DNA of 64,000 bases, from contig CAXXLZ010000002.1 in assembly GCA_963675595.2 (NCBI GenBank), positions 448,001 through 512,000 of the forward strand, in the 5' to 3' direction. A program made the position numbers and the translations under genes. Every line of letters starts with the position of its first letter. Position 1 is the first letter of the stretch. A model generated the notes under the pieces. It had not been told where the DNA came from and made no database searches. It saw only the letters and a list, made by a program, of their open reading frames with translations. This document shows, piece by piece, positions 5,926-31,990 of this stretch. The DNA is from Thermodesulfobacteriota bacterium (GTDB taxonomy: Bacteria; Desulfobacterota; Desulfarculia; JACQYL01).

Positions 5926-7344
5926 ATGGCGTTTGAACCCCAGGAAGAACAAAAAGGATTAAAATACGAGGAGCTGCGCATCTACTCCGATGAAGAGCTG
6001 CACAACTATACGGAGGATGAGCTCAAGAATTTCAAAATCAAGCACGAAGTCCCGATGTGCGAGGACTTGGAAAAGGGTCCGTGGCCGAGCTTTGTCGCGG
6101 ACGCCAAGCGCTGCGCCCTGCATCGGAGAAAGCTGTCCGACGATCGCATGCTGATCGAACGGGACGTTGTCGAAGATTTGCTCGGCCAGCTCGAGCTTTC
6201 CTTCAAAGAGGGTGAAACTCACTGGAAACACGGCGGCATCGTGGGCGTCTTCGGTTACGGCGGCGGCGTCATCGGGCGTTACTCCGATATGCCCGAACAA
6301 TTCCCGTCCATCGCCCATTTCCACACCATGCGCGTCAATCAGCCCGCGAGCAAATTCTACGACACGGACTACCTCCGGACGCTCTGCGATTTGTGGGAAT
6401 ACAGGGGCAGCGGCATGATGAACATGCACGGCTCCACCGGTGACATCATCTTCCTGGGAACTTTTACGGAACAGCTCGAGCCCATTTTCTACGAGCTCAC
6501 CCATAAGCTTGACCAGGACCTCGGCGGCTCCGGCTCGAACCTGCGTACCCCGTCCTGCTGTATCGGCAAGGCCCGCTGCGAGTGGTCCTGCTACGACACC
6601 CAGGAAATGTGCTACCAGTTGACGCACTTCTACCAGGACGAACTGCATCGTCCCGCGTTCCCCTACAAGTTCAAGTTCAAGTTCGACGGCTGCCCCAATG
6701 GTTGTGTGGCCTCCATCGCCCGTTCCGATATGTCGTTCATCGGAACCTGGAAAGACGATATCCGGATCGATCAGGCTGCGGTCAAGGCCTACATCGGCGG
6801 AGAAATCAAGCCCAACGCGGGCGCGCACGCCGGTAAAGACTGGGGCGCTTTCGACATTCAGAAGGAAGTCATCGACCTGTGCCCCACCAAGTGTATGTGG
6901 ATGGAAGGCGGCGAGCTGAAGATCGATAACGCGGAATGTACCCGCTGCATGCATTGCATCAACACCATGCCGCAGGCGCTGCGTCCGGGAACGGATACCG
7001 GCGTGACCATCCTTTGCGGCGCCAAGGCCCCCATCCTGGAAGGCGCTCAGATGTCCGTGCTCACAGTGCCCTTCATGAGAGCCGAGCCTCCGTACGACAA
7101 CGTGAAAGCCGTCGTCGAAAAGATATGGGATTGGTGGATGGAAGAAGGCAAGAACCGGGAACGTCTGGGCGAGCTCATTCAGCGCCAGGGCCTCCCCAAG
7201 TTCCTCGAGATGCTCGAACTGCCGCCCATGCCGCAGAACGTGAAAGAACCTCGAAGCAACCCGTACATCTTCTGGAAGGAAGAAGACGTGCCCGGCGGCT
7301 GGCAGCGTGACATCAACGAATACCGTTCCCGACATAAGAGATAG
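5926..7344 (+). CDS. dsrA: Dissimilatory sulfite reductase alpha subunit
   Basis: [39 protein letters not shown]...[41 protein letters not shown]. Confidence 0.99.
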
Positions 7345-7370
7345 AAGACCCGGACAGGAGGTATGTAACA

Positions 7371-8561
7371 ATGGCATTATCCACTGAACGACTTGGTCTG
7401 TTTAATCCTGATAAACCGATGGAAAACCGAATCACCGATTTGGGGCCCCGTCACTACTGGCAGTACTTCCCTCCCGTGATTCAGAACAACTACGGGAAAT
7501 GGAAATACCATGAAATCCTCGAACCCGGCGTTCTGGTTCACGTGTCCGAAACCGGGGACAAGGTCTTCACCGTGCGCACGGGCGGTTGCCGTTTCATGAC
7601 CGTTGAGAACGTGCGCGAAATCTGCGACATCGCCGATAAATACTGCGGCGGTCATCTGCGCTTCACCACCAGAAACAACATCGAATTCATGGTGGACAGC
7701 CAGGATAAGCTGGACGCTCTGAAGAAGGACTTGTTGAGCCGCAAGCACGTCTCCGGCAGCTATAAGTTCCCCATCGGCGGAACCGGTGCCGGTTTGACCA
7801 ACATCGTCCATACCCAGGGCTACCTGCACTGCCACACGCCCGCCACGGACGCCTCCTCCATGGTCAAGGCCGTGATGGACGACCTGTACGAGTACTTCAC
7901 CAGCATGACCCTGCCCGCCCAGGTGCGGGTATCCATGGCCTGCTGCCTCAACATGTGCGGCGCGGTGCATTGCTCCGACATCGCTCTGTTGGGATACCAT
8001 CGCAAACCCCCCATCGTGGACGGCGAAGTTCTTCAGTCCGTCTGTGAAATTCCTCTGGTCATCGCCGCGTGCCCCACGGCCGCCATTTCCCCGGCCAAGA
8101 CCGATGAAGGCAAGAAGTCGGTGAAGATCAAGGAAACCCGCTGCATGTTCTGCGGTAATTGCTACACCATGTGTATGGCGCTGCCTCTTTCCGACAAGGA
8201 CGGCGACTGTGTGACGATTCTGGCCGGCGGCAAGATCTCCAACCGGATCAGCATGCCCAAGTTCTCCAAGGTCGTCATCCCGGCGCTGCCCAACAACTTC
8301 CCGCGGTTCCCGGAAGTGTGCCAGTCCGTGAAAAAAATCATCGAGGCTTACGCCGCCGGCGCGAACAAGTACGAACGCATCGGTGACTGGGCTGAGAGGA
8401 TCGGCTGGGAACGCTTCTTTGAAAAATGTGATCTGCCCTTCTCCGATCACTTGATCGACGACTACCGCTTGGCTTACGATACCTTCAGAACGTCGACGCA
8501 GTTCAAGTACACCGACGCTTCCTGGGCCGTGACCGAAGCGGCGGAAGGTCTGTCCGAGTAA
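7371..8561 (+). CDS. dsrB: Dissimilatory sulfite reductase beta subunit
   Basis: [66 protein letters not shown]. Confidence 0.99.
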
Positions 8562-26650: not shown

Positions 26651-28561
26651 ATGAACAATGAAATAGTGCAATTCCTCGCCCGTGTGGATCCTTTCAGCTT
26701 CCTGCCGAAGGAAGAGATCGAAAGGCTCGCCGACACCGTGACCCTCGCGCGACATCCCAAGGACACCATCCTCTTCATCCAGGGAGAGTCGCACATGGAT
26801 CACCTTTACGTGGTCATGGACGGCGTCGTCGAAAGGTATACGGAGGAGTTCGGGAGAAAGACCTTTCGAGGCTTCGCCGAGGAGGGAGATATTTACGGCG
26901 GCGTTTCACTGCTGCTCAATGCGGGCGTTTCCCTCAGGACCGTACGTGTCGAGGAAGAAGCCACCTTCTGCCTGGTACCCAAAGCGGACTTTCTGGACCT
27001 CTGCGCGCGCTATGAAGAATTCCGCGAATATTTCTCGAATATTTTCGGTAAGCGAATGCTTGAGAAGTCGTACGGGGCTATGGCGGGCCGGAGCACACGC
27101 ACCCAAGAAGAAACCGGACTCCCGTTGCTGAATCAGCGTGTCGAAAGTATTTACTCGGACGACATCGCCGTCTGCCGACCCGAGGAGCCCATTCAAGAGG
27201 TGGCCGCCCGCATGGTTCGCAAGAGCTGCAGCGCGGTCCTGGTGGAAGGGCCCGACGGCCGATTCGTCGGTATCCTCACGGATAGGGACTTACGCGAAAA
27301 GGTTGTGGCCGGAGGGCTGTCGCCGGCCCTGCCGGTTTCTTCCATCATGTCTTCCCCCGTGGCTTCCGTTTCCGAAGACGCTCTGGTTTCCGAGGCCATT
27401 CTGGCCATGGTTCAGAAGAACATCAAACACCTAGCCGTGACGGACGCATCGGGGCGCGTTTTGGGCATGACCAGCGATGAGCATCTTCTGCTCTCGCAGA
27501 CCCATTCCACGATCTACCTCATCCGTGACATCCACAAAGCCACGCAACTCGACGACGTCATGGACAAGCATGCCCAACTCCCGCTGCTTTTCAAAACCCT
27601 GATCAACAGCGGGGTTAAGGCGGAGCGTCTCACAAGATTGATTTCGGCCTGCTCGGACGCCATTCTAAGAAAGCTTGTGGAATTCGCTTTAAATGAACTC
27701 GGTCCGCCCCCGGTACGTTTTACCTTCATGGTGCTCGGCAGTGAGGGACGAAACGAACAGACCTTTAAGACCGACCAGGATAATGCGGTGGTGTTCGAAG
27801 ACGTACCTCCGGAATCCCTGGATTCCGTCACCGACTATTTTCTCAAATTCGGGGACAAAGTCTGCACTTGGCTGGATCGGGCGGGCTACGACTTCTGCAA
27901 AGGCGGAGTCATGGCCAAGAATCCCATGTGGTGCCGGCCGATCTCCGCCTGGAAGAAATACTTCACCGATTGGATCCATACCGCCGAGCCGGAGGCGCTC
28001 CTCCAGGCCAGCATCTTTTTCGATTTTCGATCGGGTTTTGGAGACGACTCGCTGATCCATGAGCTCCGTGCACATCTCTTCGGGTCTTTAGGACAGTGGG
28101 CGGGTTTCTTTCGCCATCTCACGGAGAACACCCTGGTATTCAAGCCTCCCCTGGGATTTTTCCGTAGCTTTGTCGTGGAATCCAAAGGAAAACACCGCAA
28201 CAAGTTGGACATCAAAAGCGCCATGACCCCTATCGTGGACTATGCGCGCATTTACGCCCTGAAGAATCGCATATCCGCCACGAACACATTGGAACGGCTG
28301 AAGAAGCTGGTGACCGCGGAGCAACTTTCCCATGAAGACTACGAGGATATCTCTCAAGCCTACGTCTTCCTGATGCAGCTTCGGCTGGTTCACCAGGTGC
28401 GTCAGGTCACCGAGCTCAGAGAAGAGCCGGACAACCACATTAACCCCAAGGACCTTACCCGCATCGAACAGAACACCTTGAAGGAGATTTTCAAGCGGGT
28501 GGAACGCTACCAAGGGCAACTTCGCATAGAGTTTACCGGAGAAGGATTCGTGATCACCTGA
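26651..28561 (+). CDS. cNMP-binding + CBS pair + DUF294 (GlnD/GlnE-like nucleotidyltransferase) protein
   Basis: N-terminal cNMP domain; GILTDRDLR (CBS); LGSEGRNEQTFKTDQDNA NTase motif; CKGGVMAKNP.W, IFFDFR, LDIK, NTLERL. Confidence 0.92.
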   Translation: MNNEIVQFLARVDPFSFLPKEEIERLADTVTLARHPKDTILFIQGESHMDHLYVVMDGVVERYTEEFGRKTFRGFAEEGDIYGGVSLLLNAGVSLRTVRVEEEATFCLVPKADFLDLCARYEEFREYFSNIFGKRMLEKSYGAMAGRSTRTQEETGLPLLNQRVESIYSDDIAVCRPEEPIQEVAARMVRKSCSAVLVEGPDGRFVGILTDRDLREKVVAGGLSPALPVSSIMSSPVASVSEDALVSEAILAMVQKNIKHLAVTDASGRVLGMTSDEHLLLSQTHSTIYLIRDIHKATQLDDVMDKHAQLPLLFKTLINSGVKAERLTRLISACSDAILRKLVEFALNELGPPPVRFTFMVLGSEGRNEQTFKTDQDNAVVFEDVPPESLDSVTDYFLKFGDKVCTWLDRAGYDFCKGGVMAKNPMWCRPISAWKKYFTDWIHTAEPEALLQASIFFDFRSGFGDDSLIHELRAHLFGSLGQWAGFFRHLTENTLVFKPPLGFFRSFVVESKGKHRNKLDIKSAMTPIVDYARIYALKNRISATNTLERLKKLVTAEQLSHEDYEDISQAYVFLMQLRLVHQVRQVTELREEPDNHINPKDLTRIEQNTLKEIFKRVERYQGQLRIEFTGEGFVIT

Positions 28562-28850
28562 AGCGCCCCACACTCCACAACGGTTCCGGCCCGGCGGCCT
28601 TCAGGCGAAAACTTCCGTTCGAGCCCGACCTTCAGGCGGTACCATTCACGGGGGAGGGGAATAGGGTTGCGCATTGATTTCCAGCCTTCCTTACACCTCC
28701 TGAGTCGACCAAGAAGCTCCATGGTCCGGTTTCGTCGCGCGCCGGCGGCCTGTCATTTCCGCGACCGACTTTCCTTCAGGCCTCTCCGCCGATATCAGCT
28801 CCCTCTCCTGTCGGCGACACCCAAGGAGAGTTTTTCCTATGTGGCCTCAA

Positions 28851-29067
28851 GTCAAGCCGGAATTGGATAACCGTTTCCTATTCGCGCCCGAAGCGCCAAG
28901 TACACATGCGATGTAGAAGCGAAGATGCCGCCATTTCCCCAGCGCTACCGATGCAGCCAAACTTTATCGCGGCCGTCTCCGCTTTTTTCTCCCGGCTTGA
29001 GGCTCGGGACCCACCTCAAGTATGGGTCCCGAGCCGGTTGGGTTCTCCTAAACAAGTCCTAACCGGC
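28851..29067 (-). ncRNA. Putative bridge RNA / seekRNA of the IS1111-type element
   Basis: Long 5' stems, then two loops, each with an internal hairpin flanked by segments matching the target (TGGGGAAA, AGTTT) or donor (ATAGGAAA, GTACTT) junctions. RNA ends are approximate. Confidence 0.75.
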
Positions 29068-30156
29068 TCATGCTTGGTCCGCTTGGAGACGAAATTCATA
29101 GGTCCGTTTTTCCATGGTCAATCGCCATAGAACAACGGCCAGTTTCCGTGCCAACGCACAAATGGCCTTTTGTGGAAGGCCCGTTCGCGACAGGAGTTTT
29201 CGATAATGCGAATCAATGGCCGGATCCCTGGACTTCCACGTCCAGGCCGCCTCCACCAACAGACTCCGCAGTCGCGTCTGACCCACGGGAGGAAGCGCCA
29301 CTCGAGATTTCCGCTCTCCGCTTTGTCTTACCAACGGTGCGAGTCCCAGATAGCTGGTCACTTCCTCCACCCGATGGAACCGACTCGGGCGAAACAATTC
29401 CAGGAGGAAGGTAGCCGCTGTGATGGGACCCACCCCGGGGACGCTTCGAAGGCATCGCATTTCCTCAAAGTGTTCAGGTTTCTCGCACACACTGGAAGTC
29501 CTTTCCTCCATGAAGGCTTTTTCCTTTGTGAGGAAATTCAACTCACGGAGCAAGCTGAGCAGCGTCGCTTTGGCCTCCTTCGGCAGACGAAGCTTTCGAA
29601 GTTGCGCCACAGCGCTTCGGCCCCAATGATTGAGCCCGGGAGGCGCCTCCACACCGTGAAACAGCAGAAGGGATTGAATTCTCTGCTTAACGCGTCGAGT
29701 GCCGTCGGCCAGATCGTGCCGACGGCGAATTACGCTGCGTTCGGCCTCCTCTTCCTCCGTGGGAACGGCGATGGACTTCAATATCCCTCGGGCGGCATGG
29801 TCCGCCAACCGCATGCAATCCAGGCGGTCGGTCTTGGCCCCCGCAGTCACCGGCCTAGGGACCCGACTCGGCGCCACCACGATCACGCTGAACCCGGCTT
29901 TGGCCAAAGTGCGCGCAAGGCCGAAGCCGGTGGGCCCCGCTTCGTAGGCTACGGCTCGGATGCGCCTCAAGTGGGGGAGCAACATGGCCACGATGGCCTC
30001 CGGAGAGGCCGAGGACACAAAAGTCTTCACCTCGCCGTCGCTGCGAAGCACGGCCACGTGGTAGCTCTTTTTGTGTACGTCGATCCCGACGTGGAAATCA
30101 CGGTCGATATCCAGCTCCAAAAACTTGGCCAATTCTGTTACTTTCGTTGCTACCAT
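29068..30156 (-). CDS. IS110-family DEDD recombinase/transposase
   Basis: VGIDVHK, YEAGPTG, KTDRLDC, SVPGVGPITA, SYLGLAP..RQSG (catalytic Ser), ALARKL; SD AAAGGAG before ATG 30156. Confidence 0.96.
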   Translation of the reverse strand: MVATKVTELAKFLELDIDRDFHVGIDVHKKSYHVAVLRSDGEVKTFVSSASPEAIVAMLLPHLRRIRAVAYEAGPTGFGLARTLAKAGFSVIVVAPSRVPRPVTAGAKTDRLDCMRLADHAARGILKSIAVPTEEEEAERSVIRRRHDLADGTRRVKQRIQSLLLFHGVEAPPGLNHWGRSAVAQLRKLRLPKEAKATLLSLLRELNFLTKEKAFMEERTSSVCEKPEHFEEMRCLRSVPGVGPITAATFLLELFRPSRFHRVEEVTSYLGLAPLVRQSGERKSRVALPPVGQTRLRSLLVEAAWTWKSRDPAIDSHYRKLLSRTGLPQKAICALARKLAVVLWRLTMEKRTYEFRLQADQA

Positions 30157-30430
30157 GTTGGTCTCCTTTCTGTTTGGGTGATGCTCCATCATAACGATCG
30201 AGCACCTGAGGCCAACATGGTATTTCCCCATGGATGTGGAGTGTTAACTTTCTATAAGTTTTTCCCTCGAAAACGATCATGAATCCGTTTATGATTCCCG
30301 ATCAGTGACTTTGAAAGCGTGCTGCCGGTAAATAGGAAAACGGTCGGCAGTCGGAGGCCGCAATGCGATGGGTCTCAACTCTTCGCTTTCACCAACCCAT
30401 TTCCATTTTTTGTTCGGAGGAAGCCCAAGT

Positions 30431-31990
30431 ATGAAAAGAAGTGCATTTTTTTTCGTCCTTTTTCTCCTGACCTGCTCCGTCGTCGTTTCAACGCCCCCGG
30501 CGTTTGCCGGCCACGCGGGCATCTGGAAAGCGACGGACGGTTCCAACAACTACTACATCCAGACTTATGAACAGAAATCAGGCATTGAAAGCATCGCGGT
30601 GATCGCCACACCCGATCTCATCAGCTTCCACGTATTTCTGGGAACCGTCATCAACGGCTATCCTCTTCTGAACGATGACCCCAACACCGGGGCAAGCCTT
30701 ACTTTGACGTTCACTTCGGCCACGGAAGGCACCGCCGTGTTTACCCTGAACGGCACCGCCCACGAATCTCCGATCACACAGTCTTTTGTCGAGGACTGTG
30801 AAAACCTGACGGTTTCAAGCTTCATGGACCGAATCATACCCGCGACCCCCGTGGGGAGCGAGGGAGCCGGCCAAGCGGGCATCTGGAAGGCCAACGACAA
30901 TTCCATCAATTTCTACATTCAGACTTACGCCGGAGAGGGAGGATCGAGAAGCATCGCCGTGGTCGCCACGCCGGACCTGATTCAATTCTACGTCTTTTTG
31001 GGGACTATTGTGGACGGCGTGGCTCAGTTGAACCCGGACCCCGTTACCGGTGCGGAACTGAGCCTGGAATTCTCGTCTCTCACCCAAGGGACCGCCACCC
31101 TGATCATGGGCGGGTCCACCGCGGTTTCCCCCATGACCATCGCCTTCACCGCCAATTGCCGCGATCTGTCGCTCAGCGGAGGGAGCGGAGACGGATGGTC
31201 TTCCGGATATGTTTCCCTGGACATGAGCACCTATGCGGGTGAGTTCGGCGACGTTTATGTGGATGCCTACGCGACCTTCGCCTCCTTCAGCCAGGAACCC
31301 CAATGGTACGAGGACCCATCAGCCGCGGTGCGCGACATTCCATTGGACACCTGCGTGTTCAATTCATACGACATGGACAGTTCAGGAATCGAGATTCCCG
31401 GGCTTCTCGACGCCGGTGATTACGTGGACGTGTCTGGAGGACCCTCGGGAACCATCAGTCTCGTCAAGACCACCACGACGGCGGGCCCCTCCTACGCCCC
31501 GGAAGAGGATCTGACCGAGGCCGATTACGGAGCCGGCTCCACTTACACCTTCAGCTCCTCCGGCGGGTCCGACGTGGGTCCTTTCAGCGTCTCGGTCAAG
31601 GCTCCGGATCCTGTTCAACTGATTTATCCGGTTCTGGGAAGCACGCCGCCAAGTATCCCCAGAAACCAGGACCTGAACGTGCAATGGAATGCGGGAAGCG
31701 GCAGCGAGGTGGAGGCATCCATCAGCGCCACCAAGCTGGACCTGCAAAATCAGAAGATTACCTACTATGAGATCTACTGTCGATTCAGCGACGACGGTGA
31801 AGGCACGATTCCCGCTTCCGAGTTGAGCAAGATGCCGGACCTGGCGTCACCCGGGCCCATTCCTTTCACGTCCCCGTCCTACTTCGATCTGATCCGCTAC
31901 AATACGGCTTCCTTTTCGGCAAGCGGCCTTTCCCAGGGAGGTTTCGCGGCGATCAGCACGGGCATGGGCGGCGACATCAACCTCGAATAG
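30431..31990 (+). CDS. Secreted protein with two tandem ~95-aa GIWK/QTY modules and a C-terminal Ig-like region
   Basis: Signal peptide ending PAFA; internal repeat with 120-aa period; C-terminal LDAG, GGSDVGPF, QDLNVQW, CRFSDDG. Confidence 0.85.
   Translation: MKRSAFFFVLFLLTCSVVVSTPPAFAGHAGIWKATDGSNNYYIQTYEQKSGIESIAVIATPDLISFHVFLGTVINGYPLLNDDPNTGASLTLTFTSATEGTAVFTLNGTAHESPITQSFVEDCENLTVSSFMDRIIPATPVGSEGAGQAGIWKANDNSINFYIQTYAGEGGSRSIAVVATPDLIQFYVFLGTIVDGVAQLNPDPVTGAELSLEFSSLTQGTATLIMGGSTAVSPMTIAFTANCRDLSLSGGSGDGWSSGYVSLDMSTYAGEFGDVYVDAYATFASFSQEPQWYEDPSAAVRDIPLDTCVFNSYDMDSSGIEIPGLLDAGDYVDVSGGPSGTISLVKTTTTAGPSYAPEEDLTEADYGAGSTYTFSSSGGSDVGPFSVSVKAPDPVQLIYPVLGSTPPSIPRNQDLNVQWNAGSGSEVEASISATKLDLQNQKITYYEIYCRFSDDGEGTIPASELSKMPDLASPGPIPFTSPSYFDLIRYNTASFSASGLSQGGFAAISTGMGGDINLE

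What the first reader, a model, noticed from the sequence alone, without database searches (positions are those of the whole stretch)
28833..30240. IS1111-type bridge/seekRNA whose target and donor guides can be read against the element's own junctions
Seen (element on the minus strand): left junction ...catggGGAAA|taccatgttggcctcag; right junction ttgaggccacataGGAAA|aactctcc. Excision would restore target TGGGGAAAAACT and donor circle ATAGGAAATACC. The non-coding region after the transposase has two parallel modules. Target loop: AGTTT-g-[gctgc atcg gtagc]-gc-TGGGGAAA (plus 28959-63 / 28934-41). Donor loop: GTACTT-g-[gcgc ttcgg gcgc]-ga-ATAGGAAA (plus 28898-903 / 28874-81). The 8-mers match target-left and donor-left exactly; the short segments match the opposite strand of target-right (AGTTT) and, with one mismatch, donor-right (GTATTT). 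Established: IS110/IS1111 recombinases are guided by bridge/seekRNAs with target- and donor-binding loops. Inference: an intact, programmable RNA-guided recombinase from a sulfate reducer with predictable specificity.
Basis: partly seen in the sequence, partly recalled or inferred. Interest (0 to 1): 0.85.

Follow-up and report, generated by a model that had tools for sequence, protein, structure and literature searches.

The report
IS1111-type insertion sequence with bridge RNA
This is an intact, recently active mobile element of a known kind, which carries a small RNA whose loops spell out both the DNA site it jumps into and its own ends; it is a clear example rather than a new mechanism.

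Summary
Window 28833-30222 (minus strand) is a 1390-bp IS110-family element of the IS1111 group. It has a DEDD transposase, subterminal inverted repeats and a 235-nt non-coding region after the gene.

- **Boundaries:** a contig from another sequencing run joins 28832 to 30223, skipping exactly 1390 nt.
- **Copies:** the genome holds 8 full copies, 7 of them identical.
- **Preferred site:** seven of eight left flanks end in GGGGAAA. Five copies lie in a REP-like palindrome, GGGGGAAA|CTTTC..GAAAGTTTCCCCC.
- **Target loop:** the RNA carries AAAGTTT, the complement of AAACTTT, 5' of a hairpin and TGGGGAAA 3' of it. In relatives these two segments change together with the flanks (no shuffle of 100,000 or 20,000 reached the observed match).
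- **Donor-left guide:** it equals the last 8 nt of the right end in 14 of 15 relatives, across three sequence variants.
- **Donor-right guide:** support is weaker, resting on 3-5 nt matches across clades.

The real target is GGGGAAACTTT, not TGGGGAAAAACT. The window copy sits in an off-consensus site, with the left guide matching 8/8 and the right guide 4/7 in register.

RNA expression and programmability are untested. This is a new member of a known kind, of modest interest.

The parts
28833..30222 (-). Whole insertion sequence, 1390 bp (TACC...ATAGGAAA; one copy of the shared GGAAA is counted with the right end)
   Evidence: An empty-site contig skips exactly 28833-30222. There are 8 copies of 1390/1391 bp in the genome.
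30223..30230 (-). Left flank of this copy, TGGGGAAA (target-left plus core)
   Evidence: It is identical to the 8-mer at 28934-28941.
28825..28832 (-). Right flank of this copy, AACTCTCC (off-consensus; five other copies have CTTTC)
30204..30222 (-). Left end: TACC followed by the left subterminal inverted repeat. TACCAT (30217-30222) would serve as the -10 box of a circle-junction promoter.
   Evidence: I16 (arms 28842-28852 / 30204-30214, 11 nt, 91%). Spacing read.
30151..30165 (-). Ribosome-binding site and ATG of the transposase gene; an inverted repeat of the first 15 nt of the left end
   Evidence: I3 (15 nt, 93% complementary, 42 nt apart).
29068..30156 (-). Transposase gene, 362 aa (DEDD RuvC-like domain plus a C-terminal domain with a Ser-Gly motif)
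   Evidence: Invariant D26, E72, D110, D113, S279, G280.
29001..29035 (-). Perfect 13-bp hairpin between the stop codon and the RNA module, with no T-run after it
   Evidence: I5.
28852..29000 (-). Predicted long bridge/seekRNA region. In the minimum-free-energy fold an 11-bp helix (29000-28990 / 28862-28852) encloses the target arm, a small hairpin and the donor hairpin.
   Evidence: The closing helix is not clearly conserved in relatives.
28917..28984 (-). Target-binding arm: helices 28976-28984/28917-28925 and 28969-28973/28927-28931 close an internal loop capped by the inner hairpin
   Evidence: The outer and inner helices were recovered by RNAalifold on 16 relatives, with compensatory changes.
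28959..28965 (-). Right-target guide AAAGTTT, complementary to the top strand AAACTTT (core plus target-right)
   Evidence: 7/7 match to five copies, 6/7 to two and 4/7 to the window copy. It co-varies with right flanks in relatives.
28944..28957 (-). Inner hairpin of the target loop (GCTGC atcg GTAGC)
   Evidence: Three of its four aligned pairs have 4-7 sequences with both sides changed.
28934..28941 (-). Left-target guide TGGGGAAA, same sense as the top strand of target-left plus core
   Evidence: 8/8 to three copies, 7/8 to four and 6/8 to one. It co-varies with left flanks.
28901..28915 (-). Small hairpin between the two modules (UACAU/GUGUA in the fold; ACAU/AUGU is an alternative)
   Evidence: The relatives have GUACC..GGUAC at the same place.
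28898..28903 (-). Proposed donor-right guide GTACTT: GTA is opposite TAC of the left end, TT is opposite the core AA, and C is an invariant mismatch or bulge
   Evidence: Cross-clade matches. It overlaps a conserved hairpin arm in relatives. Weakest part of the model.
28884..28896 (-). Donor-loop hairpin (GCGC ttcgg GCGC)
   Evidence: It is nearly invariant in the 16 aligned relatives (15-16 of 16 keep each pair), so there is no covariation for or against it.
28874..28881 (-). Donor-left guide ATAGGAAA, identical to the last 8 nt of the element
   Evidence: It equals the right-end 8-mer in 14 of 15 relatives, across three variants, and in further clades.
28850..28855 (-). TTGACT, a -35-like box lying 17 nt from the right terminus. 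On a circle it would face TACCAT of the left end.
   Evidence: Read. TTGAC sits at the same distance in the 10 relatives whose right ends are printed.
28833..28852 (-). Right end: right subterminal inverted repeat (28842-28852) and terminal ATAGGAAA (28833-28840)

Best explanation
Window 28833-30222 (minus strand) is an intact, recently active insertion sequence of the IS1111 group of the IS110 family.

How it most likely works:
1. Its DEDD/Ser recombinase excises the element as a circle. Joining the ends would create a promoter, TTGACT-17 nt-TACCAT.
2. The transposase mRNA and the 3' non-coding region are transcribed together.
3. The non-coding region yields a bridge/seekRNA of roughly 70-150 nt.

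The target arm is an internal loop. Its 5' strand, AAAGUUU, pairs with the top strand of core plus target-right (AAACTTT). Its 3' strand, UGGGGAAA, pairs with the bottom strand of target-left plus core. The specified site is therefore (T/G)GGGGAAA|CTTT, with the crossover inside AAA. That site occurs in one arm of a REP-like palindrome.

The second module has the same layout. AUAGGAAA reads the right end of the element. GUA-C-UU probably reads the first bases of the left end plus the core.

Shown here: the family, the boundaries, the copy number, the site preference, the RNA-flank matches and their covariation, and the conserved helices. Inferred: that the RNA is made, that it binds the recombinase, and that changing the loops would change the target.
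For: **Family**
- PF02371 (E 4.1e-22) and PF01548 (E 1.3e-15).
- NF033542 at 228.5 bits against a cut-off of 140.
- Distant matches to the ISCro4 and IS621 transposases in the PDB, with the GIDV, E, KTDxxD and SG motifs aligned.
- Subterminal inverted repeat (I16).
- 235 nt of non-coding sequence after the gene, against 66 nt before it.

**Boundaries and recent activity**
- An empty-site contig skips exactly 1390 nt.
- The genome holds 8 full copies. Seven are identical over 1390 bp. The eighth differs at 11 positions, and its 8 changes inside the gene are all synonymous.
- Flanks of different copies are unrelated beyond about 100 nt.

**Target preference**
- Left flanks: TGGGGAAA x3, GGGGGAAA x4, CGGGAAAA x1.
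- Right flanks: CTTTC x5, CCTTT x2, AACTC x1.
- Guide matches per copy are given.
- Unoccupied palindromes of the same kind exist. GGGGAAACTTTC occurs 13 times against 0.7 expected.

**Covariation, clade 1** (16 elements with 48-56% identical transposases, plus a partial copy whose DNA is 82% identical)
- Left guide against its own flank: 5.54 of 7 variable positions, against 2.76 for other elements' flanks; 0 of 100,000 permutations reached this.
- Right guide: longest exact match 7.4 nt against 4.19; 0 of 20,000.
- A subset of 8 elements with distinct targets: only the true pairing, 1 of 40,320 permutations, reaches the observed sum on each side.

**Covariation, two further clades** (38-45% identical)
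- Left: 4.08 of 6 against 1.91; 0 of 100,000.
- Right: 6.46 against 3.05; 0 of 20,000.

**Donor-left guide**
- It equals the right-end 8-mer in 14 of 15 elements, as ATAGGAAA, ATAAGAAA or ATGAGAAA.
- In other clades both are ATAACAG or ATAGCAG.

**RNA structure**
- RNAalifold finds four helices. Six of 16 pairs have compensatory double changes, and the inner target hairpin has 4-7 such sequences at three pairs.

**Agreement with the literature**
- The order of the matches, top-strand match 5' of bottom-strand match, is the order reported for IS1111 seekRNAs (PMC11187229, section 9).
- A bridge RNA in the right end was predicted for 93.0% of IS1111 elements (PMC11208160, passage).
Against: - **No expression evidence.** No RNA run was listed for this sequence, and Rfam 15 has no matching family.
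- **The window copy fits the right guide poorly:** 4/7 in register, and 5 nt only if slid by 2.
- **The donor-right guide is short.** It is 3 nt plus the core here. In 14 of 16 aligned relatives the same bases pair inside the RNA as GUACC..GGUAC. In L047 a change there is compensated in the RNA while the left end stays TACC.
- **The donor hairpin never varies,** so it has no covariation support.
- **A donor module may not be needed.** For ISEc11 an 82-nt seekRNA with only the target matches was sufficient for movement (PMC11187229, section 10).
- **Ends of the metagenomic relatives were placed by similarity** to this element's ends, not from empty sites.
- **The elements are related,** so permutation counts overstate independence.
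Confidence: 0.88

Rival explanations
1. The element and its target loop are as described, but the second module is not an RNA guide for the donor. On this view the internal ATAGGAAA is a DNA-level repeat of the right terminus, for example a protein-binding site or a secondary end. GTACTT would be only part of a structural hairpin. The short target arm alone would be the functional seekRNA, and the ends would be recognised by the protein through the subterminal inverted repeats.
For: - An 82-nt seekRNA sufficed for ISEc11, and the role of the long form was left open (PMC11187229, sections 10 and 14).
- The GGUAC bases are a hairpin arm in 14 of 16 relatives, with one RNA-side compensation in L047.
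- The donor hairpin has no covariation.
- An internal copy of the terminus would track the terminus under either model.
Against: - The module has the same layout as the target loop: a 5' segment, a hairpin, a 2-nt spacer, then an 8-mer.
- The 8-mer follows the right end through three variants within the clade and through further variants in other clades.
- The complement of the first 4-5 nt of the left end sits at the same place in four lineages with different left ends: GGUA/TACC, AUUA/TAAT, CUAC/GTAG and CAUAA/TTATG. Own-element matches average 3.71 nt against 2.29 for other elements.
Confidence: 0.12
2. Site choice is made by the protein recognising the shape or sequence of the REP-like hairpin, and the RNA-flank matches are incidental.
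For: Five of 8 copies lie in one palindrome family and a sixth in a variant palindrome. REP targeting is common in this family (titles and abstracts).
Against: - Two copies, including the window one, are not in palindromes yet keep TGGGGAAA.
- Relatives with different loops sit at different sites that match those loops.
- A relative in a Desulfovibrionaceae MAG inserts beside a similar hairpin rather than in it, at the site its own loop spells.
Confidence: 0.03
3. The element is a silent relic, and its copies arose by duplication rather than transposition.
For: No expression data. Two pairs of copies share some flank similarity.
Against: - Seven copies are identical, and the gene is intact in all eight.
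- Flank similarity fades to 39-43% by 300 nt.
- Other runs have this locus empty.
- The variant allele has 8 of 8 synonymous changes within the gene.
Confidence: 0.04

Closest known systems
IS1111-group elements with demonstrated seekRNAs: ISEc11, ISPa11, ISKpn4, ISPst6 (Siddiquee et al. 2024, PMC11187229)
   Same: - DEDD transposase with the GL-P----SG motif.
- Subterminal inverted repeats.
- A long non-coding region after the gene.
[quoted passage not shown]
- Natural retargeting between relatives.
- A promoter formed at the circle junction.
   Different: - The transposase is 362 aa, against the 330-350 aa reported for that group.
- No named plasmid-borne relative exceeds 46.8% identity.
- The target is different: GGGGAAA|CTTT in a REP-like palindrome of a dsrA-bearing bacterium.
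- Nothing has been tested experimentally here.
- I could not compare sequences directly, because I did not hold those elements.
IS621 bridge RNA (IS110 group; Durrant et al. 2024, PMC11208160; Hiraizumi et al. 2024, PMC11208158)
   Same: - Two modules, each with a guide for the left half (same sense as the top strand, including the core) and a guide for the right half (complementary to the top strand).
- A core shared by donor and target.
- A REP-type natural target.
- Catalytic DEDD plus Ser residues.
   Different: - The RNA lies in the right end, after the gene, not in the left end.
- The order of the guides within each loop is reversed.
- The subterminal repeats are long.
- The donor guides lie in a multi-branch region rather than a simple internal loop.
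- Protein similarity is distant (E 3.9e-10, C-terminal part only).
REP-targeting IS110-family elements of Pseudomonas putida, ISPpu9 and ISPpu10 (PMC12288879; bioRxiv 10.64898/2026.03.19.712850; abstracts in search listings only)
   Same: - Multi-copy elements inserted in repetitive extragenic palindromes.
- A small-RNA gene after the transposase gene.
- Extra RNA-gene copies without a full transposase. Here that is L009.
   Different: A different host lineage and target sequence. I read only the beginnings of those abstracts, so finer comparison was not made.

Membership tests
IS110 family, IS1111 group (insertion sequence) | DEDD (RuvC-like) transposase with an N-terminal PF01548 domain and a C-terminal PF02371 domain | tested here: met
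   both domains are above their Pfam cut-offs. NF033542 equivalog at 228.5 bits against 140.
IS110 family, IS1111 group (insertion sequence) | Catalytic D, E, D, D residues and the C-terminal GL-P----S/T-G motif | tested here: met
   D26, E72, D110, D113 and L272-A-P...Q278-S279-G280 are invariant in the 4-protein alignment. They align with the GIDV / E / KTDxxD / SG motifs of ISCro4. The roles of the residues are by analogy with IS621.
IS110 family, IS1111 group (insertion sequence) | Subterminal inverted repeats of 7-17 bp with short terminal extensions | tested here: met
   I16: 11 nt, 91% complementary, starting 4 nt in from the left end and 6-9 nt in from the right end.
IS110 family, IS1111 group (insertion sequence) | The longer non-coding region lies downstream of the transposase gene | tested here: met
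   235 nt after the stop codon against 66 nt before the ATG.
IS110 family, IS1111 group (insertion sequence) | Orientation-specific insertion at one sequence, without a target duplication beyond the shared core | tested here: met
   Eight copies. The empty site skips 1390 nt with a 5-nt overlap.
Bridge RNA / seekRNA | An RNA is made from the non-coding region and associates with the transposase | not testable with these tools
   No RNA run was listed, and only contigs could be laid.
Bridge RNA / seekRNA | [quoted passage not shown] | tested here: met
   AAAGTTT and TGGGGAAA flank a hairpin. Matches to the 8 insertion sites are.
Bridge RNA / seekRNA | Guide segments co-vary with target flanks among relatives | tested here: met
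   no permutation reached the observed match in either set.
Bridge RNA / seekRNA | Donor-binding loop, left-donor guide matches the end of the element | tested here: met
   14 of 15 elements, across three variants; further clades.
Bridge RNA / seekRNA | Donor-binding loop, right-donor guide is complementary to the start of the element | tested here: inconclusive
   Matches of 3-5 nt in four lineages. In clade-1 relatives the same bases are a hairpin arm, and one change there is compensated on the RNA side.
Bridge RNA / seekRNA | Conserved secondary structure supported by compensatory changes | tested here: met
   six of 16 pairs have double changes. The donor hairpin is invariant and therefore uninformative.
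Bridge RNA / seekRNA | Reprogramming the loops redirects insertion | not testable with these tools
   This needs a transposition assay. Natural retargeting among relatives is the only proxy.

The most novel reading that the evidence does not exclude
IS1111-type bridge RNAs may carry a mirror image of the IS621 'handshake' guides.

The one or two nucleotides just 3' of the left-target guide equal the first one or two nucleotides of the element's left end in four lineages whose left ends differ:
- U with TACC
- AU with ATAAT
- GU with GTAGC
- UU with TTATG

The guide therefore reads the product (or excision-substrate) left junction on the bottom strand, rather than the naive target.

In addition, the donor-right guide is held in a hairpin whose other arm copies the donor top strand. 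Together these would imply a strand-exchange order or gating in IS1111 elements that differs from IS621.
Probability: 0.15. Interest if true: 0.55.

Novelty: new member of a known kind. Interest (0 to 1): 0.3.

Why it matters
This is a clean natural example rather than a discovery. Bridge or seekRNAs were already predicted for 93.0% of IS1111 elements and demonstrated for several, and NCBI's own model already names this protein an RNA-guided transposase.

Its value is practical:
- A compact recombinase of 362 aa with a fully readable guide RNA.
- Eight copies, and an empty site that fixes the boundaries to the base.
- A set of about 30 relatives in which both target guides and the donor-left guide change together with the DNA they read.

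That set bears on one point the seekRNA paper left open: whether the longer RNA form, with its second module, reads the element's own ends in the IS1111 group. It also gives a starting point for testing donor-loop and handshake rules outside IS621.

Tried and rejected
- **Rfam:** the scan of 28000-31000 at E up to 1 gave no family.
- **Expression:** no RNA holder was listed. Only contigs could be laid, so starts, ends and levels of an RNA could not be seen.
- **Closing helix:** I tested across relatives whether the 11-bp helix of the fold (29000-28990 / 28862-28852) is conserved. Duplex energies were better than shuffles at z <= -2 in only 3 of 15 elements, so I do not claim it.
- **Retargeting in trans:** I asked whether the truncated relative L009, whose left guide is CCTGCAAA, has redirected intact copies. 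No copy and no left end lies at such a site.
- **Segmental duplication:** rejected as the source of the copies.
- **Close relatives:** searches of the order (own genome only, of 5) and the phylum (3 of 401 at E <= 1e-70, own genome included) gave few. The metagenome scan supplied most of them (the best 80 of 581 confirmed stretches were kept, and about 30 were used).
- **Named relatives:** the best plasmid hit is 46.8% identical and is annotated only as 'IS110 family transposase'.
  - The table was off by one and was redone.
  - In one search the window row was anchored on the wrong hairpin; its true match is GTA.
  - In one search the L062 row was mis-anchored; by eye it reads AT, like its left end.
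- **Rows dropped or replaced in the counts:**
  - In one search the window copy was replaced by the consensus site of copies L002-L006. The window copy itself scores 5 of 7 on the left and 5 nt on the right.
  - In one search, L065 was dropped as a duplicate of L020, and the left junction of L052 was dropped because it is a tandem copy.
Durrant et al. Extended Data Fig. 10c and Supplementary Table 5, and Siddiquee et al. Supplementary Figs 6-9, may already show donor loops or guide extensions for IS1111 elements.
  - No structure or complex prediction was run.
- **Literature on the 'handshake' idea:** a search for 'IS1111' together with 'handshake' found 4 papers.
  - In PMC13626964 the only places holding 'IS1111' are in the reference list.
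  - None of the IS1111 passages shown for PMC13604230 mentions handshake guides.
  - I did not look up 'IS1111' in PMC11208158 and did not open the fourth paper.
  - This is not proof that the idea is unpublished.
Full report
**What is there**

On the minus strand the sequence reads ...catccaTGGGGAAA|TACCATGTTGGCCTCAGG... at the left and ...CTTGACTTGAGGCCACATAGGAAA|AACTCTCC... at the right. Between them lie three parts:
- a 66-nt leader;
- one open reading frame of 362 codons (29068-30156);
- 235 nt of non-coding sequence.

The protein has the two Pfam domains of IS110-family transposases: PF01548 (E 1.3e-15) and PF02371 (E 4.1e-22). It passes NCBI's equivalog model NF033542, 'IS110 family RNA-guided transposase', at 228.5 bits against a cut-off of 140. 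Its only solved relatives are the ISCro4 and IS621 transposases (E 4.8e-11 and 3.9e-10). In the ISCro4 alignment printed the GIDV, E, KTDxxD and SG motifs line up.

The ends carry an 11-nt subterminal inverted repeat (I16). Together with the long non-coding region downstream of the gene, these are the features that separate the IS1111 group from the IS110 group (PMC11187229 section 6; PMC11208160 passage).

**Boundaries**

The genome holds eight full copies, a 551-nt 3' fragment of a relative (81-82% identical, L009) and a 73-nt left-end remnant (L010).

A contig from another public run (X3) joins window position 28832 to 30223. It skips exactly 1390 nt, and five letters fit either side. That is the empty site, and the five letters are the GGAAA shared by the left flank and the right terminus. 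A contig of run X5 also lacks the element here. The element is therefore 28833-30222.

Copy L007 has GGGAAAA on its left, which limits the shared core to AAA or less.

**Activity**

- Seven copies are identical over all 1390 bp.
- The eighth (L008) differs at ten substitutions and one inserted base. Its eight substitutions inside the gene are all synonymous.
- The same allele is the one seen in runs X3, X5 and X11.
- None of these differences falls in a guide segment.
- Flanks of different copies are unrelated beyond the first ~100 nt, so the copies are separate insertions.

**Target**

| Flank | Sequence | Copies |
|---|---|---|
| Left | TGGGGAAA | 3 |
| Left | GGGGGAAA | 4 |
| Left | CGGGAAAA | 1 |
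| Right | CTTTC | 5 |
| Right | CCTTT | 2 |
| Right | AACTC (window copy) | 1 |

The five CTTTC copies lie in one arm of a palindrome, GGGGGAAACTTTC-GA-GAAAGTTTCCCCC. This palindrome is usually followed by a conserved CCCCTT(T)CAAAGC box, and a sixth copy lies in a variant palindrome.

GGGGAAACTTTC occurs 13 times in the genome against 0.7 expected from base composition:
- 3 are the surviving arms of occupied sites;
- 2 are in a CRISPR-like array;
- 8 are arms of six unoccupied palindromes.

Fifteen of the 26 GGGGAAAAACT hits lie inside another multi-copy repeat. None of the 17 is occupied.

**The RNA, target module**

The 243 nt after the stop codon fold far better than shuffles (z = -4.40, 0 of 200). 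In the fold, helices 28976-28984/28917-28925 and 28969-28973/28927-28931 close an internal loop capped by the hairpin GCUGC-AUCG-GUAGC. The 5' strand of the loop holds AAAGUUU and the 3' strand holds UGGGGAAA.

- UGGGGAAA is the top-strand sequence of target-left plus core.
- AAAGUUU is the complement of AAACTTT, that is, core plus target-right of the consensus site.

Matches per copy:

| Guide | Score | Copies |
|---|---|---|
| Left | 8/8 | 3 |
| Left | 7/8 | 4 |
| Left | 6/8 | 1 |
| Right | 7/7 | 5 |
| Right | 6/7 | 2 |
| Right | 4/7 | window copy |

A top-strand match lying 5' of a bottom-strand match is the order reported for IS1111 seekRNAs (PMC11187229 section 9).

**Covariation**

The fragment L009 keeps the right guide (CUAAAGUUU), and its right flank is CTTTAG, a 9-nt match. 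Its left guide has become CCUGCAAA. Its left end is lost, so that guide cannot be checked.

Relatives with 48-56% identical transposases came from three sources:
- a Desulfovibrionaceae MAG with 7 copies;
- two genomes of the same class;
- metagenome contigs.

All have the same layout. Examples of left guide / left flank pairs:
- GGCAAAGAAA / GGCAAAGAAA
- GTGGAAGAAA / GTGGAAGAAA
- GGACAAAAAA / GGACAAAAAA
- GTCTCCAAAA / CTACCCAAAA

Statistics for this clade:
- Over 13 elements, the left guide matches its own flank at 5.54 of the 7 variable positions, against 2.76 for other elements' flanks. None of 100,000 permutations reached this.
- Over 15 elements, the longest exact match of the right guide to its own flank averages 7.4 nt against 4.19. 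None of 20,000 permutations reached this.
- For eight elements with clearly distinct targets, only the true pairing among 40,320 permutations reaches the observed sum, on each side.

Two more distant clades (38-45% identical) have different ends (...CATAACAG or ...CATAGCAG). They give the same result:
- left, 4.08 of 6 against 1.91 (0 of 100,000);
- right, 6.46 against 3.05 (0 of 20,000).

RNAalifold on 16 clade-1 sequences recovers the outer and inner helices of the target arm. The inner hairpin has 4-7 sequences with both sides changed at three of its four pairs.

Two caveats apply. The ends of the metagenomic elements were placed by similarity to this element. The elements are also kin, so the permutation counts overstate independence.

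**The RNA, donor module**

The second module repeats the layout: GUACUU-G-[GCGC UUCGG GCGC]-GA-AUAGGAAA.

*Donor-left guide.* AUAGGAAA is the last 8 nt of the element. In relatives the 8-mer in the RNA equals the 8-mer at the right end in 14 of 15 elements, as ATAGGAAA, ATAAGAAA or ATGAGAAA. The one exception, L047, has an extra G in its end. In the distant clades both are ATAACAG or ATAGCAG.

*Donor-right guide.* This part is less secure.
- Against it:
  - In this element only GUA (opposite TAC) and UU (opposite the core AA) can pair, around an invariant C.
  - In 14 of 16 aligned relatives the bases GGUAC are the 3' arm of a hairpin, GUACC-loop-GGUAC.
  - In L047 a change in that arm is compensated in the RNA (GUAUC/GAUAC) while the left end stays TACC.
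- For it:
  - The complement of the first 4-5 nt of the left end sits at the same place, 3-4 nt before the donor hairpin, in four lineages with different left ends: GGUA/TACC, AUUA/TAAT, CUAC/GTAG and CAUAA/TTATG.
  - L053 has a perfect 8-nt complement to core plus left end.
  - Own-element matches average 3.71 nt against 2.29 for other elements.

I read the segment as a real but short donor-right guide that may be masked in the free RNA. I rate this step as inferred.

Durrant et al. note that in many IS1111 orthologues the donor-binding nucleotides lie in a multi-loop, which fits the fold here. Siddiquee et al. found an 82-nt RNA with only the target matches sufficient for ISEc11, and left the role of the long form open. 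The need for the donor module is therefore not settled.

**Other regulatory features read from the sequence**

- *Junction promoter.* On a circle, TTGACT (28855-28850) would lie 17 nt from TACCAT (30222-30217). That is the junction-promoter arrangement described for this family (PMC11187229 discussion). TTGAC sits at the same distance in the 10 relatives whose right ends are printed.
- *Ribosome-site masking.* The first 15 nt of the left end are an inverted repeat of the ribosome-binding site and start codon (I3). In transcripts reading in from outside this would mask translation. That reading is inference.

**Verdict**

The element is a new member of a known kind. What remains untested is expression of the RNA, its binding to the recombinase, and reprogramming.

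**Papers and what I saw of each**

| Paper | What was read |
|---|---|
| PMC11187229 | abstract, sections 6, 9, 10, 13, 14 |
| PMC11208160 | passages around 'IS1111' |
| PMC11208158 | passages around 'handshake' |
| PMC13604230 | passages around 'IS1111' |
| PMC13626964 | abstract, outline, reference passages |
| PMC12288879, 10.64898/2026.03.19.712850 | beginnings of abstracts in search listings only |

No supplements were seen.

Noticed in passing
window 28933 and 30222; loci L017, L018-L020, L050, L052, L053, L055-L061: The one or two RNA bases just after the left-target guide equal the first one or two bases of the element's left end in four lineages: U/T, AU/AT, GU/GT and UU/TT. As parsed this holds in 13 of 14 distant-clade elements, and the one miss is a parsing error. 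The pattern looks like a mirror image of the IS621 handshake guides.
   Followed up: partly
G000 C1:339446-339997 (locus L009): A truncated relative: only the last ~141 codons of the transposase remain, and the DNA is 82% identical. It still has an apparently intact bridge RNA, an identical donor module and a different left-target guide (CCTGCAAA). No element copy was found at a matching site.
   Followed up: partly
G000 C2:3813470-3813542 (locus L010): A solo 73-nt left-end remnant (97% identical) with left flank ...GCACGAAA. The rest of the element is missing.
   Followed up: no
window 30151-30165 and 30208-30222: The first 15 nt of the left end are a 93% inverted repeat of the ribosome-binding site and ATG of the transposase gene. 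The same pairing is visible in relatives L011, L015 and L034. It may mask translation in read-through transcripts.
   Followed up: no
window 29001-29035: A perfect 13-bp hairpin lies directly after the transposase stop codon, with no T-run after it. It is conserved in L009. It may be a processing or attenuation signal upstream of the bridge RNA.
   Followed up: no
G000, e.g. C2:40323-40349, C3:102080-102106, C2:328995, C2:4351037, C2:4539275: A family of REP-like palindromes, GGGGGAAACTTTC..GAAAGTTTCCCCC, usually followed by a CCCCTT(T)CAAAGC box. A variant with a longer A-run also occurs. A related element in a Desulfovibrionaceae MAG inserts into the box beside a similar hairpin rather than into the hairpin itself.
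   Followed up: partly
G000, 15 places, e.g. C1:121982, C2:654065, C2:1622897: Another repeat of about 15 copies, probably a different insertion sequence, whose start carries ATGGGGAAAAACT. This is the exact 12-mer in which the window copy sits, yet none of these sites is occupied.
   Followed up: no
G000 C2:4378306-4381543: CRISPR-like repeats (...CCCCGCGTGTGCGGGGGAAAC) end in a 7/8 match to the left-target guide. Where the spacer begins with TTT they complete the element's target.
   Followed up: no
loci L034 and L035: Two relatives (54-56% identical transposases) are inserted at an A7 run inside what looks like an IS3-family transposase gene. Their left guides read (G/A)UAAAAAAA.
   Followed up: no
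locus L052, about 1349-1375: In a metagenome contig the right end of one copy abuts the left end of the next (...CATAGCAG|GTAATATG...). This is either a head-to-tail tandem or an assembled circle junction.
   Followed up: no
window 29313-29371, 28984-28994; locus L008: The one divergent copy has eight synonymous changes clustered in 59 bp, plus three changes in the non-coding region. The same allele is the form of the element in runs X3, X5 and X11. This suggests two lineages of the element, or gene conversion.
   Followed up: partly
window about 6061-8456 (G000 C2:454061-456456): A dsrA match (585.6 bits, cut-off 392.85), followed by a weaker paralogous match (probably dsrB), lies in the same window. 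This is consistent with a sulfite- or sulfate-respiring host.
   Followed up: no
window 28839-28913, minor contigs of runs X1, X3, X5 (tables 7 and 8): Low-depth contigs carry a variant of the right end with 6 differences, running into ...GGGGGACTTTTTGAG... instead of the GGAAA terminus. I did not place it in the genome.
   Followed up: no
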